DNA of 64,000 nt from Flavobacteriales bacterium (GTDB taxonomy: Bacteria; Bacteroidota; Bacteroidia; Flavobacteriales; BACL11). A program made the translations under genes and the position numbers. Of the stretch, positions 54,024-60,589 are shown piece by piece; position 1 is the first letter of the stretch; every line of letters begins with the position of its first letter. The notes under the pieces were generated by a model. It had not been told where the DNA came from. It did not search any database and saw only the letters and a program-made list of their open reading frames with translations. Where the stretch lies: positions 1,915,159 to 1,979,158 of the forward strand of contig OZ238992.1 of NCBI GenBank assembly GCA_965183885.1, given 5' to 3'.

Positions 54024-55202
54024 ATGAAACTTAAAAAAGGAATATTAACAGCAGTATTATTAGCTGTTACCACACTTACATTTGCACAATCGCATAATAT
54101 TGTTAACGCTTCAATTGCATTAAGAAATGAGAACCTTGCTGAAGCTAAGGACTATATTGACCAGGCTTATTCGGCAGAAAGTACTGCTAATGATCCTAAA
54201 ATGTGGAACTACCGTTCAAAAATCTACTTGGAGATAGCTATTAAAAAATCTGAACTAGATAGTGATGCTATTTTTAAAGCAACTGAAGCGTATTTAAAGT
54301 GCTTACAAACAGATAAAAAAGGAAGAATAGTTGTACGTAAATGGACAGCAGAGGAGGATGTAAGATCAAGTTTAGTACAGTGTGGTTATAAACTATTTAA
54401 TATTGCAATTGATAAGTATAACAAGGAGGACTATACAAGTTCTTTAAAGCACTACAATGTAATATTTGATATTATTCCTTTTGATACTGAAGATCAGTTA
54501 AAAAGAGGTAATATTACTGAAGAAACAATACTTTTTAATTCATTTTACGCTGCAAATAAAATGAAGGATAATGTAAAGTCACGTGAGTTATTACAAAAGC
54601 TTATTGATATTAACTTTAATGAGCCTTCTATTTATATTCATATGAGTAATAGTTACCTTGAAGATGATAATACAGAAAAGGCTATAGAGTATTTAGCATT
54701 AGGTAGAGAGAATTTTGAGGATGACCAATCACTTATTAATACTGAAATTAACTTGTATATTAAATTAGGAAGAACATCTGAGTTAATTGAGAAGTTAGGT
54801 GAGGCAATAGCTTTAGATGAGGAAAATGATGTATTATTCTTTAATAGAGGAACTATTTATGATCAAGAAGGAGATTTAATAAATGCTGAAAAAGATTATA
54901 AAAAAGCTATCGAGTTGAATCCTTCAGCATTTGGAGCTAATTATAATTTGGGAGCACTTTATTTTAATCAAGGAGTAGAGATAAATAATAAAGCAAATAG
55001 TACTAGTAATAATAGTACATATGAAAAATTAAAGAAGCAATCAGAAAGCACATTTGCTAAATCATTACCATATTTAGAAACTGCTTATGATTTAAACCCA
55101 GAGGATAAGAACACATTGTTGTCATTAAAACAATTATATTATTTAAATGGGGACTATGCAAAGTCAGAAGAAATGAAGAAGCTTATTGCAGAACTTAAAT
55201 AA
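54024..55202 (+). CDS. Tetratricopeptide-repeat protein, secreted
   Basis: 392 aa. Signal peptide and several TPR units (for example AEKDYKKAIELNPSAFGANYNLGALY). Confidence 0.8.
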   Translation: MKLKKGILTAVLLAVTTLTFAQSHNIVNASIALRNENLAEAKDYIDQAYSAESTANDPKMWNYRSKIYLEIAIKKSELDSDAIFKATEAYLKCLQTDKKGRIVVRKWTAEEDVRSSLVQCGYKLFNIAIDKYNKEDYTSSLKHYNVIFDIIPFDTEDQLKRGNITEETILFNSFYAANKMKDNVKSRELLQKLIDINFNEPSIYIHMSNSYLEDDNTEKAIEYLALGRENFEDDQSLINTEINLYIKLGRTSELIEKLGEAIALDEENDVLFFNRGTIYDQEGDLINAEKDYKKAIELNPSAFGANYNLGALYFNQGVEINNKANSTSNNSTYEKLKKQSESTFAKSLPYLETAYDLNPEDKNTLLSLKQLYYLNGDYAKSEEMKKLIAELK

Positions 55203-55217
55203 GAATAAAATGATAAG

Positions 55218-55242
55218 TGGGAGCTAATACTCCCATTTATTT
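55218..55242 (+). terminator. Probable terminator of the TPR gene
   Basis: TGGGAG-CTAATA-CTCCCA hairpin followed by TTTATTT. Confidence 0.5.
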
Positions 55243-55786
55243 AAATACAGTAATTTAACATAATATTAATTATAGGACAAAAGGAGTTGTGTGTTTATAT
55301 ATAGTACTATTGTATACTTTAGTCAACTATAATATATATTATGTCTGCACTAGCGTTTGCCCTTTGGGTAAATTTTTTTACAAAAAAAATGAAAAAGAAA
55401 ACTTTGGTCCTATAATTAGACATTATGTATAAATAGCCTGCTTGCCCTAGCACAATTTATTTTTTAAAAATATTTTTGTTTTAATAACAAAAAATTTTAA
55501 ATATAAATTCAGCCGCTTTGCCAATGCATTTTTAAGAATTTAATATTTTACCCACCGCCAAGAAATTTTATGTGGTAGTTTACTTGTATACAAAAAATGC
55601 TTTTGCCTTTATAATCTTAAGGCTTTATTTCGCATTTTTCTATACTGCATTAACTGAATTTTATTATTTATTCATTTTGCCTTGATGACAAATGAAGCGT
55701 TAGCAAATTCACGAATACTATTAAATAAAATTATTAATGAGTAAAACGAACCAAAAAATCAAGAATTATTATAGTCTTTTCTTTAG

Positions 55787-55826
55787 CAACAATTAGCAAG
55801 TATATTAAAATGTTTGCTAATTGTTG
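55787..55826 (-). terminator. 13-bp hairpin immediately downstream of the JAB-E1 gene (candidate terminator without U-tract)
   Basis: CAACAATTAGCAA (55787-55799) and TTGCTAATTGTTG (55814-55826) are perfect complements with a 14-nt loop, 30 nt past the stop at 55856. Confidence 0.4.
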
Positions 55827-55855
55827 TTATAGGAAATTTATCAGGTGAAAATAAT

Positions 55856-57346
55856 TTAAAAACTAAATATTGAAGATGCTACTTTTTTTATAAGAGAATA
55901 TAATCCTTTATTTTTTTTACCTGACAGGGAATTCTGATATTTAATTCTACTATTTTCTGATTGTAAGTGTTTTATTATTAAGGATTTATTTGTATCATCT
56001 GCACTTCCAATTAAATCTTTGGAAATCATACAGTCATGCTTACAATTATTTTCAAAACTAAAATCTATATTTCCTGTATTAAAATCCATTTCTTTTGGAC
56101 CGTAATAGAATCCTCTTGGTTTTAAAATCAAAGATAAAAATTGTTGTATTTCCATTCCTGCTAGACCCAAACTAAAACCGAAAACATTTTCACCTCGATT
56201 AATAAAGTGATTCTTAGGTAACCCCTTTATATACTTTGGATTATCTAATTCTCCTGATAATTCTAATGCCGCATCTTCAGGTCTATATTGCCCCAAACAT
56301 TGCATGCATATTCTTTCAGGTCCTATTGTGTGTGCTTTCCATCTAGCTTGATCTATATTTGATAAATCTGCATTTGGATTTGTATCAATTCCACCATCAA
56401 TAACTGGAATTAAGTTTGCAAATGATAAACAATCTAAAGCGTATCTAGGAAGAGGCATATCTACACAAGAAAATAAAATATCACAATCAAGCGCTGCTTC
56501 TTGTCCTTCTTTTTCAGTAATACTATAAGGTACGGCATTAATTTTTAAACCAGAAATGAGTTCAGTTTTTAAAAGTCTCTTTTTTTGAACATCTACTTTA
56601 AATTTTCCAATATCAGCTCTATTTATTGCTAATAATCTATCTAAATTTTTTAATTCAACTAAATCAAAATCAATAAGCGTTAAATTCTTAATACCTGTTC
56701 TTAAAATAGCTTCAGTAACTATAGAGCCAACACTACCTAAACCTACTATTCCAATTTTCAATCTAGAAATTTCATGCTGTTTTAAATCTCCCCAAGATGA
56801 AATAGTACGTTTAAACTCTTCTCCGAAATTAGATTTTGGGAAAATATCATCACAGAAATATGTTTTTAGGGACTTACCTACTACCCTTACGGATTCGCAC
56901 CAATATCGTTCATAAGTATTTGGGGCTTTTTTTATCCAAAATCGAGCACTCCAATAATTATCTATTCCAATTGTCATTCCAACTAGAGGTAACCCTGTAA
57001 CTGCCTTAACTCTTGGAGCTAACATTTTTTCTGCCTCTATATCGTCAAAGCTCATTCCTTGCCAACCTGGATAAGGATGACTATGAATAAAACAGATTCC
57101 TAAATTATTAGCTAAAGCATAAGAGGTTGCCTTATCAAAATAAACGGAATTAAAACTTACATTTCCATGTATATTTCTATCTCCAAATTCTGGTAAAATC
57201 ACTTCATTAATAACTCCTGTTTCTCGTAGTTTTCCAGAAGATAATTTATAAAAAGCAAAGCATAAATCTTCTTGACCATCCTCTCTAATAAGGTGTTCAA
57301 AAAATATCCTATTGACATTTTCTGTCATTGTTATACTATACTTCAT
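55856..57346 (-). CDS. JAB (JAMM-like deubiquitinase-type metalloprotease) fused to ThiF/MoeB-type E1-like adenylating enzyme
   Basis: 496 aa. N-terminal E (GQEDLCF) plus HSHPYPGWQGMSFDD (H-x-H-x8-S-x2-D). The C-terminal half has IGIVGLGSVGS (GxGxxG), LIDFDLVELKNLDRL, FSCVDMPLPR, and CMQC...CKHDC cysteine pairs. Confidence 0.8.
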   Translation of the reverse strand: MKYSITMTENVNRIFFEHLIREDGQEDLCFAFYKLSSGKLRETGVINEVILPEFGDRNIHGNVSFNSVYFDKATSYALANNLGICFIHSHPYPGWQGMSFDDIEAEKMLAPRVKAVTGLPLVGMTIGIDNYWSARFWIKKAPNTYERYWCESVRVVGKSLKTYFCDDIFPKSNFGEEFKRTISSWGDLKQHEISRLKIGIVGLGSVGSIVTEAILRTGIKNLTLIDFDLVELKNLDRLLAINRADIGKFKVDVQKKRLLKTELISGLKINAVPYSITEKEGQEAALDCDILFSCVDMPLPRYALDCLSFANLIPVIDGGIDTNPNADLSNIDQARWKAHTIGPERICMQCLGQYRPEDAALELSGELDNPKYIKGLPKNHFINRGENVFGFSLGLAGMEIQQFLSLILKPRGFYYGPKEMDFNTGNIDFSFENNCKHDCMISKDLIGSADDTNKSLIIKHLQSENSRIKYQNSLSGKKNKGLYSLIKKVASSIFSF

Positions 57347-57702
57347 TCGAAATCTAATAATGTTCTTAAAAATGCTAAATAATCATCCGCAGTCATACCA
57401 GAAGTCCATCCTTTAAATGGTCTACTCCAATACTGATATTCTTGTGTAGGAACTTTTCTGTCGTGTATTCCGCCAAAAGGATGTGTGCCTCCACCTCCTG
57501 TAATAGGAAGTAAATGTGGTTTTATATGTGGTCCTGAAGGCGGTAACAATGGAAACTGTTGACCTTGTAAAGCTATTTCAATTTCTTGTCCTTTAAACCT
57601 CCCTAATGGAACGATAAACTTGAAGCACACAAAATTATTTGTGTGCATCCAAGTTTCGAGTCCTTTGCTTTGCAGTTGACTCATTAACTCATTATTTCCC
57701 AT
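57343..57702 (-). CDS. E2/UBC-fold-like protein lacking an active-site cysteine (Prok-E2_E-like)
   Basis: 119 aa. FPLLPPSGPHIKPH resembles the UBC YPxxPP...HPN segment. The gene sits between a Ubl gene and an E1 gene and overlaps the E1 start by 4 nt. The only Cys is C26. Confidence 0.55.
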   Translation of the reverse strand: MGNNELMSQLQSKGLETWMHTNNFVCFKFIVPLGRFKGQEIEIALQGQQFPLLPPSGPHIKPHLLPITGGGGTHPFGGIHDRKVPTQEYQYWSRPFKGWTSGMTADDYLAFLRTLLDFE

Positions 57703-57704
57703 AA

Positions 57705-58148
57705 CTACGAAACAGTTGTAGGTTCAAGTTTACAAGAACTAAATTTAAGAGCATTTTTAATAGATACTTTATGCTCTCTATCATTTTTATAACTAACTTC
57801 TATATGTCCACTAATTTGTTTTAAATAAAACCCATTAGCATTCTTTCCTGATGCAGTTAATATTTGATTTGGAGTCATAAAACATTCATCTACTTGAAAA
57901 GGTTCATCATCAACATAAATGATTAGTTTCTTATAAGGTTTTGCAAAAAAACCTTCAATTCCAGCCTCATTAAGATCAATTCTTTCATCTAATTGAACTG
58001 GCTCAAAACCTTTCTCATTTACTTTGATTAATAATTCATAATCTTCAACCGGGAATAGATTTGCTTTCTTTAATATTTCTTCCCCTGTAATAATTGCATC
58101 AACAGTTTCAAATTTTTCTCTGTTAACTTTGTAACTAAATTTTTCCAT
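57705..58148 (-). CDS. Tandem ubiquitin-like (two beta-grasp repeats; Multiubiquitin-type) protein
   Basis: 147 aa. Two roughly 65-aa repeats share the same pattern (FSYKVNREKFETVDAIITGEEILKKANL... and LIIYVDDEPFQVDECFMTPNQILTASGK...). 2-nt gap to the E2-like gene. Confidence 0.6.
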   Translation of the reverse strand: MEKFSYKVNREKFETVDAIITGEEILKKANLFPVEDYELLIKVNEKGFEPVQLDERIDLNEAGIEGFFAKPYKKLIIYVDDEPFQVDECFMTPNQILTASGKNANGFYLKQISGHIEVSYKNDREHKVSIKNALKFSSCKLEPTTVS

Positions 58149-58173
58149 TTTTTTGTTTTTTTAATGGATTAAC

Positions 58174-58197
58174 TCATGTTCTTATATTAGAACATGA
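58174..58197. promoter_or_regulatory. 24-bp palindrome TCATGTTCT-TATATT-AGAACATGA (candidate operator of the Ubl operon)
   Basis: Perfect 9-bp arms, 26-49 nt upstream of the Ubl start codon (58148, minus strand), in the divergent region shared with the HTH-ImmA gene. Confidence 0.4.
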
Positions 58198-58265
58198 ATA
58201 TACTATTTTGGTAAAAGTTGTAAAAGAAATTTTGATAATAAATATAAAATTATATCTTTGCACAA

Positions 58266-58376
58266 CTATATAGGGATATTAAGGTGATAAGCCTTAATAG
58301 TGCAAGTCTGTAGAAAACTTTTACCCCATTTATATAATCCAATTTATTGTTACCTGCAATAGATTGGATTTTTTTG
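58266..58376 (+). ncRNA. Candidate small RNA (about 110 nt) bounded by a promoter box and a strong intrinsic terminator
   Basis: TTG (58232-58234)-N18-TATCTTTG (58253-58260) promoter. Internal 8-bp hairpin TATTAAGG/CCTTAATA (58277-58299). No ATG-initiated ORF in between. Confidence 0.35.
58337..58376 (+). terminator. Strong Rho-independent terminator with no upstream + strand gene
   Basis: 14-bp stem AATCCAATTTATTG / CAATAGATTGGATT (one G-U pair that would become an A-C mismatch on the other strand), 7-nt loop, then TTTTTT. Confidence 0.7.
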
Positions 58377-58616
58377 TTTTTATCCTTTTTTATTTTTAAA
58401 TTATGAATACAAATATACTTAAATAATATGTAATGATATTACAATGATACTGTTTTTGTTATCAAAGTTTTTAACTTTATGTTAATAACATATTTCAATA
58501 TTAATAACAGTATACTGAATATTTATTAGTTAGAGAGTTCTGACAATAGTATCTTATATAGTTACTTGTAAAGTAAATAAATTAACAAACAACCTAATAA
58601 TTAATTTATATTTTAA

Positions 58617-58624
58617 TAGATTTG
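58617..58624 (+). promoter_or_regulatory. -7 promoter box TAGATTTG
   Basis: Exact TAnnTTTG match. The TTG 58622 start of the track ORF lies inside the box, so the real start is ATG 58637 or 58649. Confidence 0.5.
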
Positions 58625-58636
58625 CAATCAACTTAT

Positions 58637-59734
58637 ATGATAAAATTTATGTCAAAAGATATTAATCATCCTGGTGTATTTCTAAATAAGCTACTTGTAG
58701 ATAAAGGAATTAGCCAACGAGAATTTGCCTCAAAGATTAATATTGCACATTCACTTTTAAATAACATATTAAAAGGTAATAGAAATATCAATATTAATAT
58801 TGCTATTTCACTTGAATCTGCTAGGATGAAAACTGCTGATTATTGGCTAAAAGAGCAAATGAAGTACTCTTTATATTTAGCAAAGAATAATGAAGAAATA
58901 ATAAAGAAAAATGAATGTATAAAGATATGGAATGATTTAGAGGAATTAGTTCCCATTTCATTTTTCAAAAAACAGGGTCATCTAGAATCAAGTTCTTTAA
59001 ATGATGATATTAATAAAATATATGAAATTTATGAGGTAGAAGACATAAGAAGCTTAAAGCATAAAGTTAACACCTATCAACTAAGCCATTTTAGAAAATC
59101 ATCAAAATTTCCTGAAAATGAAAGGAATATAATTGCTTGGTCTCTATTAGCAAAATATAAAGCAAAGCAAGAAGAATTAAAACCTTTTTCAAAAACGAAT
59201 GAAGGATTCTTGATAAATGAACTGAAAAGATGTTTTTTGAAGAATGAGAACACATTAAGTAAGTCTAAAGAAATACTAAATAAATATGGAATTAAATTTT
59301 TTATTTTGGACAGGCCACCTAAAACTCCAGTTGATGGGAAATCATTTATGTCTGGAAAATCTCCTGCAATAGTTTTATCATTAAAATATAAAAGATTAGA
59401 TAATTTTGCTTTTACATTATTTCATGAGATTGGACATGTTTTTAAGCACTTGATTACTCCTAAATATAAAGGTGTTGATTTCTTTGTTAACGGTTCTAAT
59501 GAAAAGTTTGAAGAATTTGAAGCTAACATATACGCAAGAAATCACTTAATTGATTCTGAATCTTGGAGTAATTTTATTAATTCAAATAGTGAATTTAATG
59601 ATGAAGTTATTAATAAGTTCTCTACTTCAATTAAAGTTCATCCTTCAATAATTAGAGGAAGAGTATGTTTTGAATATCCAGAATATTATAAAAAGAGGAG
59701 TGCTATAAATAGAATTAATTATTTAACTTACTAA
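58637..59734 (+). CDS. Fusion of XRE/HigA-type HTH domain and ImmA/IrrE-family (COG2856) zinc metallopeptidase
   Basis: N-terminal HPGVFLNKLLVDKGISQREFASKINIAHSLLNNILKGNRNI (HTH). C-terminal FAFTLFHEIGHVFKH (HExxH), then EEFEANIYARNHLI (downstream Glu ligand). Confidence 0.85.
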   Translation: MIKFMSKDINHPGVFLNKLLVDKGISQREFASKINIAHSLLNNILKGNRNININIAISLESARMKTADYWLKEQMKYSLYLAKNNEEIIKKNECIKIWNDLEELVPISFFKKQGHLESSSLNDDINKIYEIYEVEDIRSLKHKVNTYQLSHFRKSSKFPENERNIIAWSLLAKYKAKQEELKPFSKTNEGFLINELKRCFLKNENTLSKSKEILNKYGIKFFILDRPPKTPVDGKSFMSGKSPAIVLSLKYKRLDNFAFTLFHEIGHVFKHLITPKYKGVDFFVNGSNEKFEEFEANIYARNHLIDSESWSNFINSNSEFNDEVINKFSTSIKVHPSIIRGRVCFEYPEYYKKRSAINRINYLTY

Positions 59735-59793
59735 CCTTCTATTCTAAACCAGTAATTAATTTACTACTTTTTTTTAATAATGCCTCCCCCCTA

Positions 59794-60589
59794 TTACTCC
59801 AAAATAATTCGCTTTTCAACACTACCATCGCTATAAATATAAAACAAAATACCTTTTTGTTTGGGGTTGGCTTCTTTACCTAAAATATCCACAACTTTAA
59901 CAAGTTTTTTGTTACTGCCATTTACCTCATAAACAGCATTAGGCTGCTCAGTAGTTTCCTCTAAAACAAAATTATCTATATACACTACATAGTTATTGGT
60001 GTCACCTATCCCTACTTCTACAGTAACATACTGCTCTGCATTTTGGGTATTGAATACCACACTGTACTGTTTCCAAATGCTATCACCTAGAGGAGAAGTA
60101 TAAAGATGAGTACCAAAAGAAGTATCAACATTAGAAATCCCTACTTGTATATAATTATTTTTAACATTATAACAAGGGGTTGTATCTGTTGGATAAGTAG
60201 ATGGCTCTTTCACATAAAAAGAGAGTTTGTAATTTTGTTCCGTACTTAAAGGTTGGCTCAGCTCCAACGAAAATTTAGATTGAGTCCAATATATATTTCC
60301 TGATATATATAGGCTCAGAATGCATATTAAGGTGCCAATGCCCATCTTGTGCCCCCCCCCCCAAAAAATAATTTGGAAGAAAAGTGCAGGTAACACAAGA
60401 ATCTTTAATTAGGGCTATCTGAGTACCATAAGCAACAGAATATAACATAGTATTATTCCAAGAGTTTGTATTCATAGCATGATAACATTGGCTTTCAGTA
60501 TTTAATTCAAAACTACCATTAAGGATTAAATTTTGAGAATTAGCAGTTAAACCAAAACATAAAAATAATATATAGATTAATTTTTTCAT
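59794..60589 (-). pseudogene. Frameshifted secreted CBM-like (jelly-roll) protein with short C-terminal domain, paralog A
   Basis: Track ORFs 60275..60589 (signal peptide, NLILNGSFE) and 59794..60396 are two frames of one gene. By homology to paralog B, the poly-G (11 G, 60352-60362) is in frame. The break maps to the (TA)4 run at 60303-60311. Confidence 0.7.
60352..60362 (-). repeat. Homopolymer: 11 C on + strand (poly-G in the coding strand of paralog A)
   Basis: Counted directly. Encodes the Gly run in ..NYFLGGGAQ.. Confidence 0.95.

What the first reader, a model, noticed from the sequence alone, without database searches (positions are those of the whole stretch)
58637..59734. Divergently transcribed HTH-ImmA/IrrE single-chain fusion next to the Ubl operon (CapH/CapP-like damage sensor?)
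The protein combines an XRE/HigA-type HTH with a COG2856 HExxH metallopeptidase (FHEIGHVFKH). It is transcribed divergently from the Ubl-E2-JAB/E1 operon across a 470-nt regulatory region.

Two-protein HTH plus ImmA/IrrE pairs (ImmR/ImmA, DdrO/IrrE, CapH/CapP) de-repress mobile elements and defence operons after DNA damage. Here both halves are in one polypeptide, which suggests a self-cleaving or cis-acting switch controlling the neighbouring system.
Basis: partly seen in the sequence, partly recalled or inferred. Interest (0 to 1): 0.6.

Follow-up and report, generated by a model that had tools for sequence, protein, structure and literature searches.

The report
One-protein repressor-protease switch beside Bub operon
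This gene encodes a DNA-binding domain fused to a zinc protease, and in many marine bacteria close relatives sit back-to-back with ubiquitin-like (Bub) or other defence operons together with their own conserved promoter-and-operator block. It is therefore most likely the on/off switch of the neighbouring operon, a known kind of regulator built from a toxin-antitoxin protein lineage.

Summary
**Observation: confirmed.** ORF 58637-59734 (+; likely true start 58649) encodes a HigA-type HTH fused to an M78/ImmA-IrrE peptidase with an intact HEIGH...E motif. It lies divergent from a Multi_ubiq / E2-like / JAB-ThiF (BubE-less Bub) operon.

**Interpretation: partly supported.**

- **Link to the operon is real.** In 23 distinct loci with homologs at 47% identity or more, the gene always faces a divergent cargo operon:
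  - 19 Ubl/E1 operons (12 type II Bub, 5 three-gene JAB-E1 Bub, 1 truncated, 1 other ThiF operon)
  - 1 CBASS
  - 1 DUF1508+DUF2188
  - 2 unknown
- **No HigB in this clade.** More distant homologs (42% or less) have a HigB-like toxin gene immediately upstream, as in PD-lambda-2.
- **A conserved DNA block travels with the gene.** It contains the gene's own promoter, the operator-like palindrome GTTAWTAAC (16/23 loci; 0.33 expected) and an outward promoter about 243 nt from the start codon, whatever the cargo.
- **It is not a CapP.** It has no GAF domain and no cysteine-switch loop, and scores 22 bits against capP versus 113 bits against PD-Lambda-2_B. ssDNA sensing and self-cleavage remain untested.
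- **The proposed operator is misassigned.** The 58174-58197 palindrome belongs to the Bub leader, not to the regulator.

Fused CapH-CapP proteins and CapH+CapP-regulated Bub operons are already published, and this scan has noted two-gene versions in other genomes. I rate it a new variant of a known kind, of moderate interest.

The parts
58637..59734 (+). HTH-M78 fusion gene (365 aa from ATG 58637; probable true start ATG 58649, 361 aa)
   Evidence: ORF. Domains. Homolog N-termini align to M5.
58667..58891 (+). HigA-type helix-turn-helix DNA-binding domain (about residues 11-85)
   Evidence: Pfam HTH_3 residues 18-61. TIGR02607 HigA residues 10-84. PDB HigA sequence hits at E 1e-9. Foldseek HigA TM about 0.8, rmsd about 1 A.
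59090..59110 (+). Invariant FRKSSKF loop (residues 152-158) between the HTH/helical part and the peptidase; candidate cleavage or recognition site (inference)
   Evidence: Invariant in 37 homologs. K154 and S155 are conserved in both clades. The residue block 151-160 has mean pLDDT 67 between confident helices. CapH is cut at F82-R83 (paper 10.64898/2026.05.16.725639).
59285..59560 (+). M78 (ImmA/IrrE, COG2856) zinc-peptidase domain; HEIGH at 59423-59437, third ligand candidate E293 at 59513-59515
   Evidence: Pfam PF06114. Invariant H263, E264, H267, H271 and E293. Foldseek hits to IrrE 3dti, CapP 7t5t and PprI 8sln at E 4e-3 to 1e-2.
58617..58624 (+). Bacteroidota-type -7 box TAGATTTG, predicted promoter of the fusion gene
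   Evidence: A TAnnTTTG box lies 28-52 nt before the start codon in most clade-A loci. This is a consensus match only.
58582..58587 (.). Degenerate remnant (TTAACA) at the position where relatives carry operator O1, GTTATTAACA
   Evidence: Module alignment.
58467..58508 (.). Three copies of the operator-like palindrome: GTTTTTAAC (58467-75, one mismatch), GTTAATAAC (58481-89, exact), ATTAATAAC (58500-08, one mismatch)
   Evidence: GTTAWTAAC is exact in 16 of 23 clade-A intergenic regions, against a mean of 0.33 (maximum 4) in 1000 shuffles. Its density is 1.7/kb against 0.05/kb background. It occurs in 1 of 36 regions upstream of clade-B higB.
58445..58463 (.). Second conserved site O2 (TGATACTGTTTTTGTTATC; family consensus TGATAACAnnTTTGTTAAC), just upstream of the cargo promoter
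   Evidence: Module alignment of 20 loci; sequences.
58408..58417 (-). Predicted cargo (bub) promoter -7 box (TACAAATATA on +, which reads TATATTTG on -), firing toward bubA
   Evidence: A conserved TACAAAKATA lies at a constant 239-252 nt from the fusion start in 16 loci with Bub I, Bub II, DUF1508 or unknown cargo. This is a consensus match only.
58253..58380 (+). Promoter-to-terminator unit for a roughly 115-nt small RNA, antisense to the predicted bub 5' leader. It is linked to bubA, not to the regulator.
   Evidence: nhmmer hits lie upstream of bubA in 13 loci, including ones without the fusion. Covariation: 8 pairs with changes on both sides against 3.4 +/- 1.0 in shuffles, 0/500. There is no Rfam match.
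58174..58197 (.). 24-nt palindrome 26-49 nt upstream of the bubA start codon; the local version of a hairpin-forming element conserved in Bub leaders
   Evidence: Inverted repeat I11. The homologous CTCA..TTCTTTAAAACAGCTTGAG..ACTGTTCAGG block is present in Bub loci with fusion, Panacea or CapH+CapP neighbours.
55856..58148 (-). Cargo: three-gene BubE-less Bub-type operon (Multi_ubiq 147 aa, E2-like 119 aa, JAB-ThiF 496 aa)
   Evidence: Homologous operons.

Best explanation
The gene encodes a one-protein 'controller of adjacent pathway' (Cap-type) regulator of the neighbouring Bub operon.

**Inferred mechanism**
- The HigA-type HTH, presumably as a dimer, binds GTTAWTAAC-type palindromes and the TGATAAC..GTTAAC site. 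These lie over the -33 regions of its own promoter and of an outward-facing promoter that drives the cargo. Binding keeps both promoters low.
- The covalently attached M78 zinc peptidase inactivates the repressor on some stress or infection signal. Cleavage may be in cis or between subunits, possibly at the invariant F152-R153 loop. The Bub operon is then de-repressed.

**Shown here**
- The domain make-up and the intact catalytic motif.
- Near-obligatory divergent linkage of this clade to Bub, CBASS and DUF2188-type cargos.
- Interchangeability with a genuine CapH+CapP pair at the same operon type.
- A conserved promoter-operator block that moves with the gene.

**Inferred only**
- DNA binding, repression rather than activation, proteolytic inactivation, and the identity of the signal.

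**Evolution.** The clade is a HigB-less offshoot of the HigB / HigA-M78 (PD-lambda-2-like) toxin-antitoxin family.
For: **Linkage**
- All 23 clade-A loci have a divergent cargo operon: 19 Ubl/E1, 1 CBASS (SMODS + Sa_NUDIX), 1 DUF1508+DUF2188 and 2 unknown. None has HigB.
- This cargo list mirrors the published CapH+CapP cargos (Lau 2022; Ye 2024).
- The same three-gene Bub operon carries a true capP (118.6 bits) plus a capH-like pair in the same divergent slot in L095.
- In the tree, clade A is one clade nested among HigB-linked fusions, and cargo types are interspersed within it. This indicates modular swapping.

**Regulatory block**
- GTTAWTAAC is exact in 16/23 loci (shuffle mean 0.33) and usually lies 70-90 nt before the start codon, over the -33 region of the gene's own promoter.
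- The outward TAnnTTTG box lies at a fixed 239-252 nt in 16 loci, regardless of cargo.
- The motif is absent upstream of clade-B higB (1/36).

**Other**
- Both the fusion gene and the JAB-E1 gene are absent from the 67 other genomes of the family, so they are accessory here.
- The catalytic residues are invariant.
Against: - No expression, binding or cleavage data exist. All promoters are consensus matches.
- In this window the canonical O1 site at about -75 is degenerate. The exact palindrome sits at -156 from ATG 58637 (-168 from ATG 58649), so autoregulation may differ here.
- The protein lacks the GAF domain and the cysteine-switch loop that couple CapP to ssDNA. The trigger is therefore unknown.
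- Its closest characterised relative, PD-lambda-2B, behaved as a toxin when expressed alone (Vassallo 2022), not as a plain repressor.
- O2 lies about -35 to -55 relative to the cargo start site, a position also compatible with activation.
- Only about a third of published Bub operons have CapH/CapP-type neighbours. Some very close three-gene Bub operons have other upstream genes instead (L092, L093).
Confidence: 0.62

Rival explanations
1. The gene is an orphan or decaying remnant of a HigB / HigA-M78 (PD-lambda-2-like) toxin-antitoxin module. It merely sits in the same defence island as the Bub operon and has no functional link to it.
For: The best profile match is PD-Lambda-2_B. More distant homologs are preceded by HigB-like toxin genes (33 of 42 HigB-like, 7 ParE-like). 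Plasmid homologs are annotated as HigA antitoxins. No HigB gene is present here.
Against: The HigB-less state is shared by a whole monophyletic clade with conserved, intact catalytic residues. That clade is divergent from Bub or other Cap-type cargo in at least 21 of 23 loci, with fixed spacing and conserved motifs. Chance co-location in islands would not give a constant 243-nt architecture across different cargos.
Confidence: 0.06
2. The protein acts mainly at the protein level on the Bub pathway, not as its transcriptional switch. It could be a protease that processes or removes the Ubl in place of the missing BubE. Alternatively it could be a PD-lambda-2B-like toxic effector held in check by the Bub machinery.
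For: This cassette lacks BubE. PD-lambda-2B is toxic alone. The peptidase is intact. ImmA-domain proteins are hub antitoxins that contact many partners (Ernits 2023).
Against: The same clade accompanies type II Bub operons that do have BubE (12 loci). It also accompanies CBASS and DUF2188 cargos that have no Ubl. It is always on the opposite strand with its own promoter and a conserved palindromic site, and it keeps a full HigA-type DNA-binding domain.
Confidence: 0.1
3. It is an ImmR/ImmA-type switch of a mobile element that controls excision or transfer, and the Bub operon is only passenger cargo.
For: Several related loci lie in mobile contexts, with integrase, relaxase, primase-like and GIY-YIG genes. 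ImmR/ImmA is the founding example of HTH + M78 control.
Against: In the window the accessory segment contains no integrase, relaxase or replication genes. Synteny with two relatives in the same genus breaks about 140 nt after the TPR gene. The gene is always directly divergent from the cargo's first gene, whatever the wider context.
Confidence: 0.05
4. It is a transcriptional activator, or a dual regulator, of the cargo promoter rather than a repressor.
For: The O2 site lies about 27-46 nt upstream of the predicted -7 box, a typical activator position. No -33 TTTG is evident for the cargo promoter in the window.
Against: All characterised relatives are repressors: HigA, CapH, DdrO and ImmR. 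The O1 palindrome overlaps the -33 region of the gene's own promoter, as in autorepression.
Confidence: 0.1

Closest known systems
CapH + CapP (and the CapH-CapP fusions noted with 15 CBASS and some DISARM systems; Lau et al. 2022, bioRxiv 10.1101/2022.04.27.489752). Associated with 168 of 544 Bub operons (Ye et al. 2024, PMC11601596).
   Same: It combines an HTH repressor part with an M78 zinc peptidase. It is encoded upstream of, and on the opposite strand to, an immune or stress operon. The cargo repertoire is the same (Bub/6e, CBASS, DUF2188). A true CapH+CapP pair replaces it at a 67%-identical three-gene Bub operon (L095).
   Different: The score against the capP profile is only 22 bits, over the peptidase core alone. 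There is no GAF domain and no cysteine-switch loop, so the known ssDNA-sensing groove is missing. The HTH is of the HigA type. The lineage is that of HigB-linked antitoxins. Both functions are in one chain.
PD-lambda-2B of the E. coli PD-lambda-2 defence system (Vassallo et al. 2022, PMC9519451); Xre-COG2856 fusions of predicted three-component TA systems
   Same: This is the best sequence match (113 bits, E 4.5e-33). The architecture is the same: a HigA-like HTH, a helical linker and a C-terminal peptidase, about 360-400 aa in total. The catalytic and [FY][RK]KS motifs are shared.
   Different: Here there is no upstream HigB-like gene (PD-lambda-2A) and no third gene (PD-lambda-2C). Instead there is a divergent Bub operon and a clade-specific operator/promoter block. 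Toxicity has not been tested.
RmrA antitoxin of RosmerTA; the ImmA-protease hub antitoxin node D25 (Millman 2022; Ernits et al. 2023, PMC10440598)
   Same: It is a single-chain N-terminal HTH plus ImmA-type peptidase that partners with many different modules.
   Different: Similarity is only weak (16.6 bits). There is no adjacent co-directional toxin gene.
ImmR/ImmA (ICEBs1) and DdrO/IrrE (Deinococcus)
   Same: The logic is the same: an HTH repressor inactivated by an M78 metallopeptidase. The fold is similar to IrrE/PprI.
   Different: Those are two separate proteins. IrrE has a GAF domain. Their targets are ICE or DNA-repair genes, not an adjacent defence cassette.

Membership tests
CapP (CBASS-associated peptidase) / CapH-CapP regulator | M78 zinc metallopeptidase with HExxH plus a downstream Glu ligand | tested here: met
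   H263, E264, H267 and E293 are invariant. The H267-E293 spacing is 26 residues, against H101-E128 (27) in CapP.
CapP (CBASS-associated peptidase) / CapH-CapP regulator | C-terminal GAF domain that forms the ssDNA-binding groove with the peptidase domain | tested here: not met
   About 70 residues, all helical, follow E293 in the AF2 model. Foldseek aligns about 165 of the 278 CapP residues. The capP profile is matched only at positions 43-140 of 242.
CapP (CBASS-associated peptidase) / CapH-CapP regulator | Cysteine-switch loop between HExxH and the third ligand (present in many but not all CapPs) | tested here: not met
   There is no Cys between H267 and E293 in any of the 37 homologs.
CapP (CBASS-associated peptidase) / CapH-CapP regulator | Encoded upstream of, and divergent from, an immune or stress operon | tested here: met
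   23 of 23 clade-A loci are divergent from a cargo operon.
CapP (CBASS-associated peptidase) / CapH-CapP regulator | ssDNA- or DNA-damage-stimulated cleavage of the HTH repressor | not testable with these tools
   This needs biochemistry or reporter assays.
PD-lambda-2 (HigB-like A, HigA-peptidase B, C) | Component B: a HigA-like HTH fused to a C-terminal peptidase, with significant profile similarity | tested here: met
   PDLC03982, E 4.5e-33, residues 101-356. The HigA HTH is supported.
PD-lambda-2 (HigB-like A, HigA-peptidase B, C) | Upstream co-directional HigB-like gene (component A) | tested here: not met
   There is no ORF longer than 30 aa in 58149-58636. HigB is absent in all 23 clade-A loci and present in most clade-B loci.
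PD-lambda-2 (HigB-like A, HigA-peptidase B, C) | Downstream third component (related to a P4 antitoxin) | tested here: not met
   The next gene is convergent (59794-60396, minus strand) and unrelated. Downstream genes vary among clade-A loci.
HigA antitoxin family (TIGR02607) | HigA-type HTH domain | tested here: met
   47.0 bits against a cutoff of 47.7. PDB HigA hits at 1e-9. Structural TM about 0.8.
HigA antitoxin family (TIGR02607) | Paired with, and neutralising, a HigB toxin | tested here: not met
   There is no higB in the locus.
ImmR/ImmA mobile-element switch | Controls integrase, excision or transfer genes of an ICE or prophage | tested here: not met
   No such genes lie in or next to the accessory segment in the window.

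The most novel reading that the evidence does not exclude
A monophyletic, HigB-less branch of the HigB / HigA-M78 (PD-lambda-2-type) toxin-antitoxin family has been exapted in Flavobacteriia into a portable, one-protein sensor-repressor cassette. The cassette comprises the gene, its autoregulated promoter, GTTAWTAAC operators and an outward promoter at a fixed distance of about 243 nt. It plugs into different defence cargos (Bub I-like, Bub II, CBASS, DUF1508/DUF2188). It switches them on by cis or inter-subunit self-cleavage at the invariant F-R loop. The trigger would be something other than the GAF-dependent ssDNA sensing of CapP.
Probability: 0.3. Interest if true: 0.6.

Novelty: new variant of a known kind. 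Interest (0 to 1): 0.45.

Why it matters
How defence and stress operons such as Bub are kept silent and then switched on is an active question. [quoted passage not shown]

This locus adds a fourth flavour that can be tested easily:
- It is a single polypeptide from the toxin-antitoxin (PD-lambda-2B) lineage.
- It lacks the known ssDNA-sensing domain.
- It carries a conserved operator and a portable outward promoter.

This links TA antitoxins and defence-operon regulators in evolution, much as VapKSC relates to CapK+CapS.

It also provides concrete DNA sites (58445-58508) and a candidate cleavage loop for experiments on Bub, whose biological role is still unknown.

However, the general principle of an HTH + M78 switch beside Bub, including fused forms elsewhere, is already published.

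Tried and rejected
- **Same-family and same-order genome searches.** Both the fusion and JAB-E1 were absent from the 67 other family genomes. The fusion appeared in only 4 of 400 other genomes of the order. This shows accessory status but gives no co-occurrence statistics.
- **Genome-contig scan.** Run with the single protein, it returned only 3 loci.
- **Rfam.** No family matched in 55000-60500.
- **Sigma-70 promoter scan.** Uninformative: 26 hits against 27.8 expected. I used Bacteroidota TAnnTTTG boxes instead.
- **RNAalifold on a MAFFT alignment.** It recovered only the terminator. The inner hairpins had to be specified by hand.
- **Fission/fusion test.** I asked whether the L095 CapH/CapP pair is a split version of the fusion. 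BLASTP shows only motif-level similarity, so this is rejected. They are different lineages in the same slot.
- **The 58174-58197 palindrome as operator.** Rejected, because the element is conserved with bubA irrespective of regulator type.
- **Model coordinates.** AF2 coordinates are not exposed. I could not check whether the FRKS loop or Cys344 lies near the active site.
- **Plasmid search.** It found only clade-B HigA-type homologs.
Full report
**1.

The + strand ORF ending at 59734 opens at TTG 58622 and has in-frame ATGs at 58637 and 58649. From 58637 it encodes 365 aa.

Domain evidence:
- Pfam finds HTH_3 (residues 18-61, E 8e-6) and Peptidase_M78 (residues 217-308, E 1.7e-4, 21.8 bits against a cutoff of 22).
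- NCBIfam finds the HigA antidote model at 47.0 bits against a cutoff of 47.7.
- PADLOC's best hit by far is PD-Lambda-2_B (113 bits, E 4.5e-33, residues 101-356). capP reaches only 22 bits over the peptidase core, and RmrA 16.6 bits.

In an alignment of 37 homologs, H263, E264, H267 (the HEIGH motif), H271 and E293 are invariant. So are FRKSSKF (residues 152-158), TPVDGKSF and RGRVC. 36 of the 37 sequences start at the position of the window's second ATG, so 58649 is the more likely start.

An AlphaFold2 model built on that alignment is confident (pLDDT 89.8, pTM 0.77):
- Residues about 11-85 superpose on HigA antitoxins (TM about 0.8, rmsd about 1 A).
- The C-terminal half matches IrrE (3dti), CapP (7t5t) and PprI (8sln), but only over about 165 columns (E 4e-3 to 1e-2).
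- After the third zinc ligand only about 70 helical residues remain, so there is no room for a GAF domain.
- There is no cysteine in the loop between HExxH and E293.

The neighbour on the minus strand is Multi_ubiq (147 aa), an E2-like protein (119 aa) and JAB-ThiF (496 aa). The 488-nt spacer has no ORF longer than 30 aa, and in particular no higB.

**2. What is already published**

- Ye et al. (PMC11601596) report that 168 of 544 Bub operons are associated with CapH+CapP and 43 with CapW.
- Lau et al. 2022 state that 15 CBASS systems encode an apparent CapH-CapP fusion. [quoted passage not shown]
- Lau et al. add that CapH/CapP-like genes always lie upstream of, and on the opposite strand to, their cargo. 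The cargos include 6a and 6e ubiquitin-like operons and DUF2188 operons.
- Vassallo et al. 2022 describe PD-lambda-2 as a HigB-like protein A, a HigA-HTH/peptidase fusion B that is toxic alone, and a third protein C.
- Ernits et al. 2023 describe HTH-ImmA proteins (RmrA) as promiscuous hub antitoxins.
[quoted passage not shown] It is gated by a cysteine-switch loop and cuts CapH at F82-R83.

A single-chain HTH-M78 protein, and an HTH+M78 switch next to Bub, are therefore not new in themselves.

**3. Is the gene linked to the Ubl operon?**

*Accessory status.* Both the fusion gene and the JAB-E1 gene are absent from the 67 other genomes of the same family. The fusion is rare in the order, found in 4 of 400 other genomes. 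Synteny with two genomes of the same genus stops about 140 nt after the TPR gene, at about 55341. The segment is therefore accessory.

*Sources of homolog contexts.* Homologs came from the protein database, a metagenome scan with the alignment, three genome contigs and exact-protein look-ups.

*Two groups emerge*:

- **Clade A** (47-71% identity; all named sources are Flavobacteriia). It comprises 23 distinct loci with enough upstream sequence. None has an upstream higB-like ORF, and all have a divergently oriented operon. Cargo types:

| Cargo | Loci |
|---|---|
| Type II Bub (Multi_ubiq + DUF6791-ThiF + DUF6527/BubE) | 12: L003, L004, L005, L011, L015, L017, L018, L020, L023, L099, L106, L109 |
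| Same three-gene JAB-E1 Bub operon as the window | 5: window, L096 (Flavobacterium sp. LS1P28), L097, L098, L107 (Zobellia) |
| BubA at a contig end | 1: L019 |
| Another small-protein + ThiF operon | 1: L021 |
| CBASS (SMODS cyclase + Sa_NUDIX) | 1: L014 |
| DUF1508 (YegP-like) + DUF2188 | 1: L108 |
| Unknown | 2: L012, L025 |

- **Clade B** (42% identity or less). A co-directional ORF of about 107 aa abuts or overlaps the fusion gene. Of 42 such ORFs, 33 match HigB-like_toxin and 7 match ParE_like. This is the PD-lambda-2A/B arrangement. Only L072 (31% identity) has a Bub operon.

*The reverse direction.* Close homologs of the window's three-gene operon (67-81% identical JAB-E1) have one of the following upstream:
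- the fusion (L096-L098);
- a separate HTH_3 (115 aa) + Peptidase_M78 (176 aa) pair (L095), which PADLOC identifies as a genuine capP (118.6 bits) plus a capH-like protein;
- a co-directional 115-aa protein + MqsA/SocA_Panacea pair (L092, L093).

BLASTP between the fusion and the L095 pair shows only motif-level similarity. Two unrelated HTH+M78 solutions therefore occupy the same slot.

*Phylogeny.* A FastTree phylogeny of 83 fusions, midpoint-rooted, places clade A as one long-branched clade nested among HigB-linked sequences. Bub I-like, Bub II, CBASS and DUF1508 cargos are interspersed within it. The window's nearest relatives (L099, L010) accompany type II Bub. Regulator and cargo therefore recombine as modules.

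**4. A conserved regulatory block travels with the gene**

I oriented all intergenic regions so that the fusion gene lies to the right. The last roughly 260 nt before its start codon are alignable across cargos. They contain four elements:

- **(a) Own promoter.** A Bacteroidota -7 box, TAnnTTTG, lies 28-52 nt before the start codon. In the window it is TAGATTTG at 58617-58624.
- **(b) Operator O1.** The palindrome GTTAWTAAC, usually GTTATTAACA, lies 70-90 nt before the start codon, over the -33 region of that promoter. A second inverted copy abuts the -7 box in one subgroup.
- **(c) Site O2.** Consensus TGATAACAnnTTTGTTAAC.
- **(d) Cargo promoter.** The box TACAAAKATA, which reads TAnnTTTG on the opposite strand, lies at a nearly constant 239-252 nt from the start codon in 16 loci. 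These loci have Bub I-like, Bub II, DUF1508 or unknown cargo.

Statistics for GTTAWTAAC:
- It is exact in 16 of 23 clade-A regions. In 1000 shuffles the mean was 0.33 and the maximum 4.
- Its density is 1.7 per kb, against 0.05 per kb in all fetched DNA.
- It appears in only 1 of 36 regions upstream of clade-B higB genes.
- It has no exact copy in the four Bub loci that lack the fusion.

In the window:
- The cargo -7 box is at 58408-58417, and O2 at 58445-58463.
- The exact palindrome is at 58481-58489, with one-mismatch copies at 58467-58475 and 58500-58508.
- The canonical O1 position retains only TTAACA (58582-58587).

These are consensus and conservation arguments.

**5. What belongs to the cargo rather than the regulator**

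*The small-RNA unit.* The left part of the spacer holds a promoter-to-terminator unit on the + strand, from TATCTTTG at 58253-58260 to the hairpin and T-run ending near 58380.
- nhmmer finds it upstream of bubA in 13 other loci. These include L090, L092, L093 and L094 (Panacea neighbours) and L095 (CapH+CapP).
- A hand-specified structure of two inner hairpins plus the terminator shows 8 pairs with changes on both sides. Shuffles give 3.4 +/- 1.0 (0/500), and 89% of cells are paired, against at most 49% when the partners are slid.
- The G-U pairs favour the + strand.
- There is no Rfam match.
- If the cargo promoter at 58408-58417 is real, this roughly 115-nt RNA is antisense to the bub 5' leader.

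That block lies 20-60 nt upstream of bubA in Bub loci with any kind of neighbour. It is therefore a Bub-leader element and not the fusion's operator.

**6. Mechanism**

*Best reading (confidence about 0.6).* This is a one-protein Cap-type switch.
- The HigA-type HTH binds the GTTAWTAAC and O2 sites. It represses its own promoter and the outward cargo promoter.
- The fused M78 peptidase inactivates the repressor on a signal and de-represses Bub.

*Shown:* the architecture, the intact active site, the linkage, interchangeability with CapH+CapP, and the portable promoter-operator block.

*Inferred:* DNA binding, the sign of regulation, proteolysis and the signal.

*Candidate cleavage site.* The invariant F152-R153 lies in a lower-confidence loop (pLDDT about 67) between the HTH/helical half and the peptidase. 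By analogy with F82-R83 in CapH it is a candidate cleavage site. The same loop is [YF][KR]KS in HigB-linked relatives, so it may serve another role.

*Unknown trigger.* The GAF domain and cysteine switch are missing, so the CapP mode of ssDNA sensing cannot simply be assumed.

*Rivals.* I judge each of these unlikely, for the reasons given in its entry:
- an orphan TA remnant;
- a protein-level protease or toxin acting on Bub;
- a mobile-element ImmR/ImmA switch;
- an activator rather than a repressor.

**7. Novelty and verdict**

The principle is known, and this scan has repeatedly noted two-gene CapH/CapP-like switches beside Bub operons in other genomes.

What appears not to be described:
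- This particular regulator is a HigB-less, GAF-less branch of the PD-lambda-2B / HigA-COG2856 antitoxin lineage.
- The branch forms a monophyletic clade in Flavobacteriia that serves several cargos.
- It has a conserved operator and a fixed-distance outward promoter.

I could not check whether the fused entries in the supplementary tables of Lau et al. or Ye et al. already include this clade.

The wider family is large: 121 representative clusters at E <= 1e-30 and 1669 at E <= 1e-10.

I rate it a new variant of a known kind, with interest about 0.45.

Noticed in passing
window 58253-58380 (+): A conserved promoter-to-terminator unit encodes a roughly 115-nt structured RNA. It has an inner hairpin with a conserved UGAUAAG loop and covarying stems. 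It sits upstream of bubA in at least 13 other Flavobacteriia Bub loci of both types, whatever the neighbouring regulator, and has no Rfam match. It would be antisense to the predicted bub 5' leader.
   Followed up: partly
window 58174-58197: The 24-nt palindrome is the local form of a conserved hairpin-forming block (CTCA..TTCTTTAAAACAGCTTGAG..ACTGTTCAGG) just upstream of bubA in many Bub loci. It is probably an RNA-leader element rather than a repressor site.
   Followed up: partly
L092 2582-3953 and L093 1844-3216: In two close relatives of the three-gene Bub operon, the upstream slot holds a co-directional 115-aa protein plus a 340-aa MqsA-like/SocA_Panacea protein (a PanAT-like pair). This is a second 'hub antitoxin' type next to Bub.
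   Followed up: no
L093 6017-7510 and L094 2838-4331: A 497-aa reverse transcriptase (RVT_1), preceded by a 49-aa ORF, follows the three-gene Bub operon directly on the same strand.
   Followed up: no
L014 737-3921: A 60%-identical homolog of the fusion is only 65 nt from a divergent CBASS-like operon (SMODS cyclase, Sa_NUDIX effector and three small proteins). This is probably one of the 'fused CapH-CapP' CBASS cases.
   Followed up: partly
L108 3335-4386: A 53%-identical homolog faces a DUF1508 (YegP-like) + DUF2188 pair. Published work places these cargos under CapH/CapP and CapK/CapS control.
   Followed up: no
L099 453-1777; L107 6096-7133: Other defence or toxin genes flank these cassettes: SdpC/SdpA-like genes next to a type II Bub operon, and AbiEii + DUF6922 right after the fusion gene in Zobellia.
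   Followed up: no
window about 55341: Synteny with two genomes of the same genus ends about 140 nt after the TPR gene. Everything from there to at least 64000, including the Bub/regulator cassette and the poly-G paralog genes, has no counterpart in the compared stretches: about 8.5 kb beyond the TPR gene in G064, and to the contig end in G060.
   Followed up: partly
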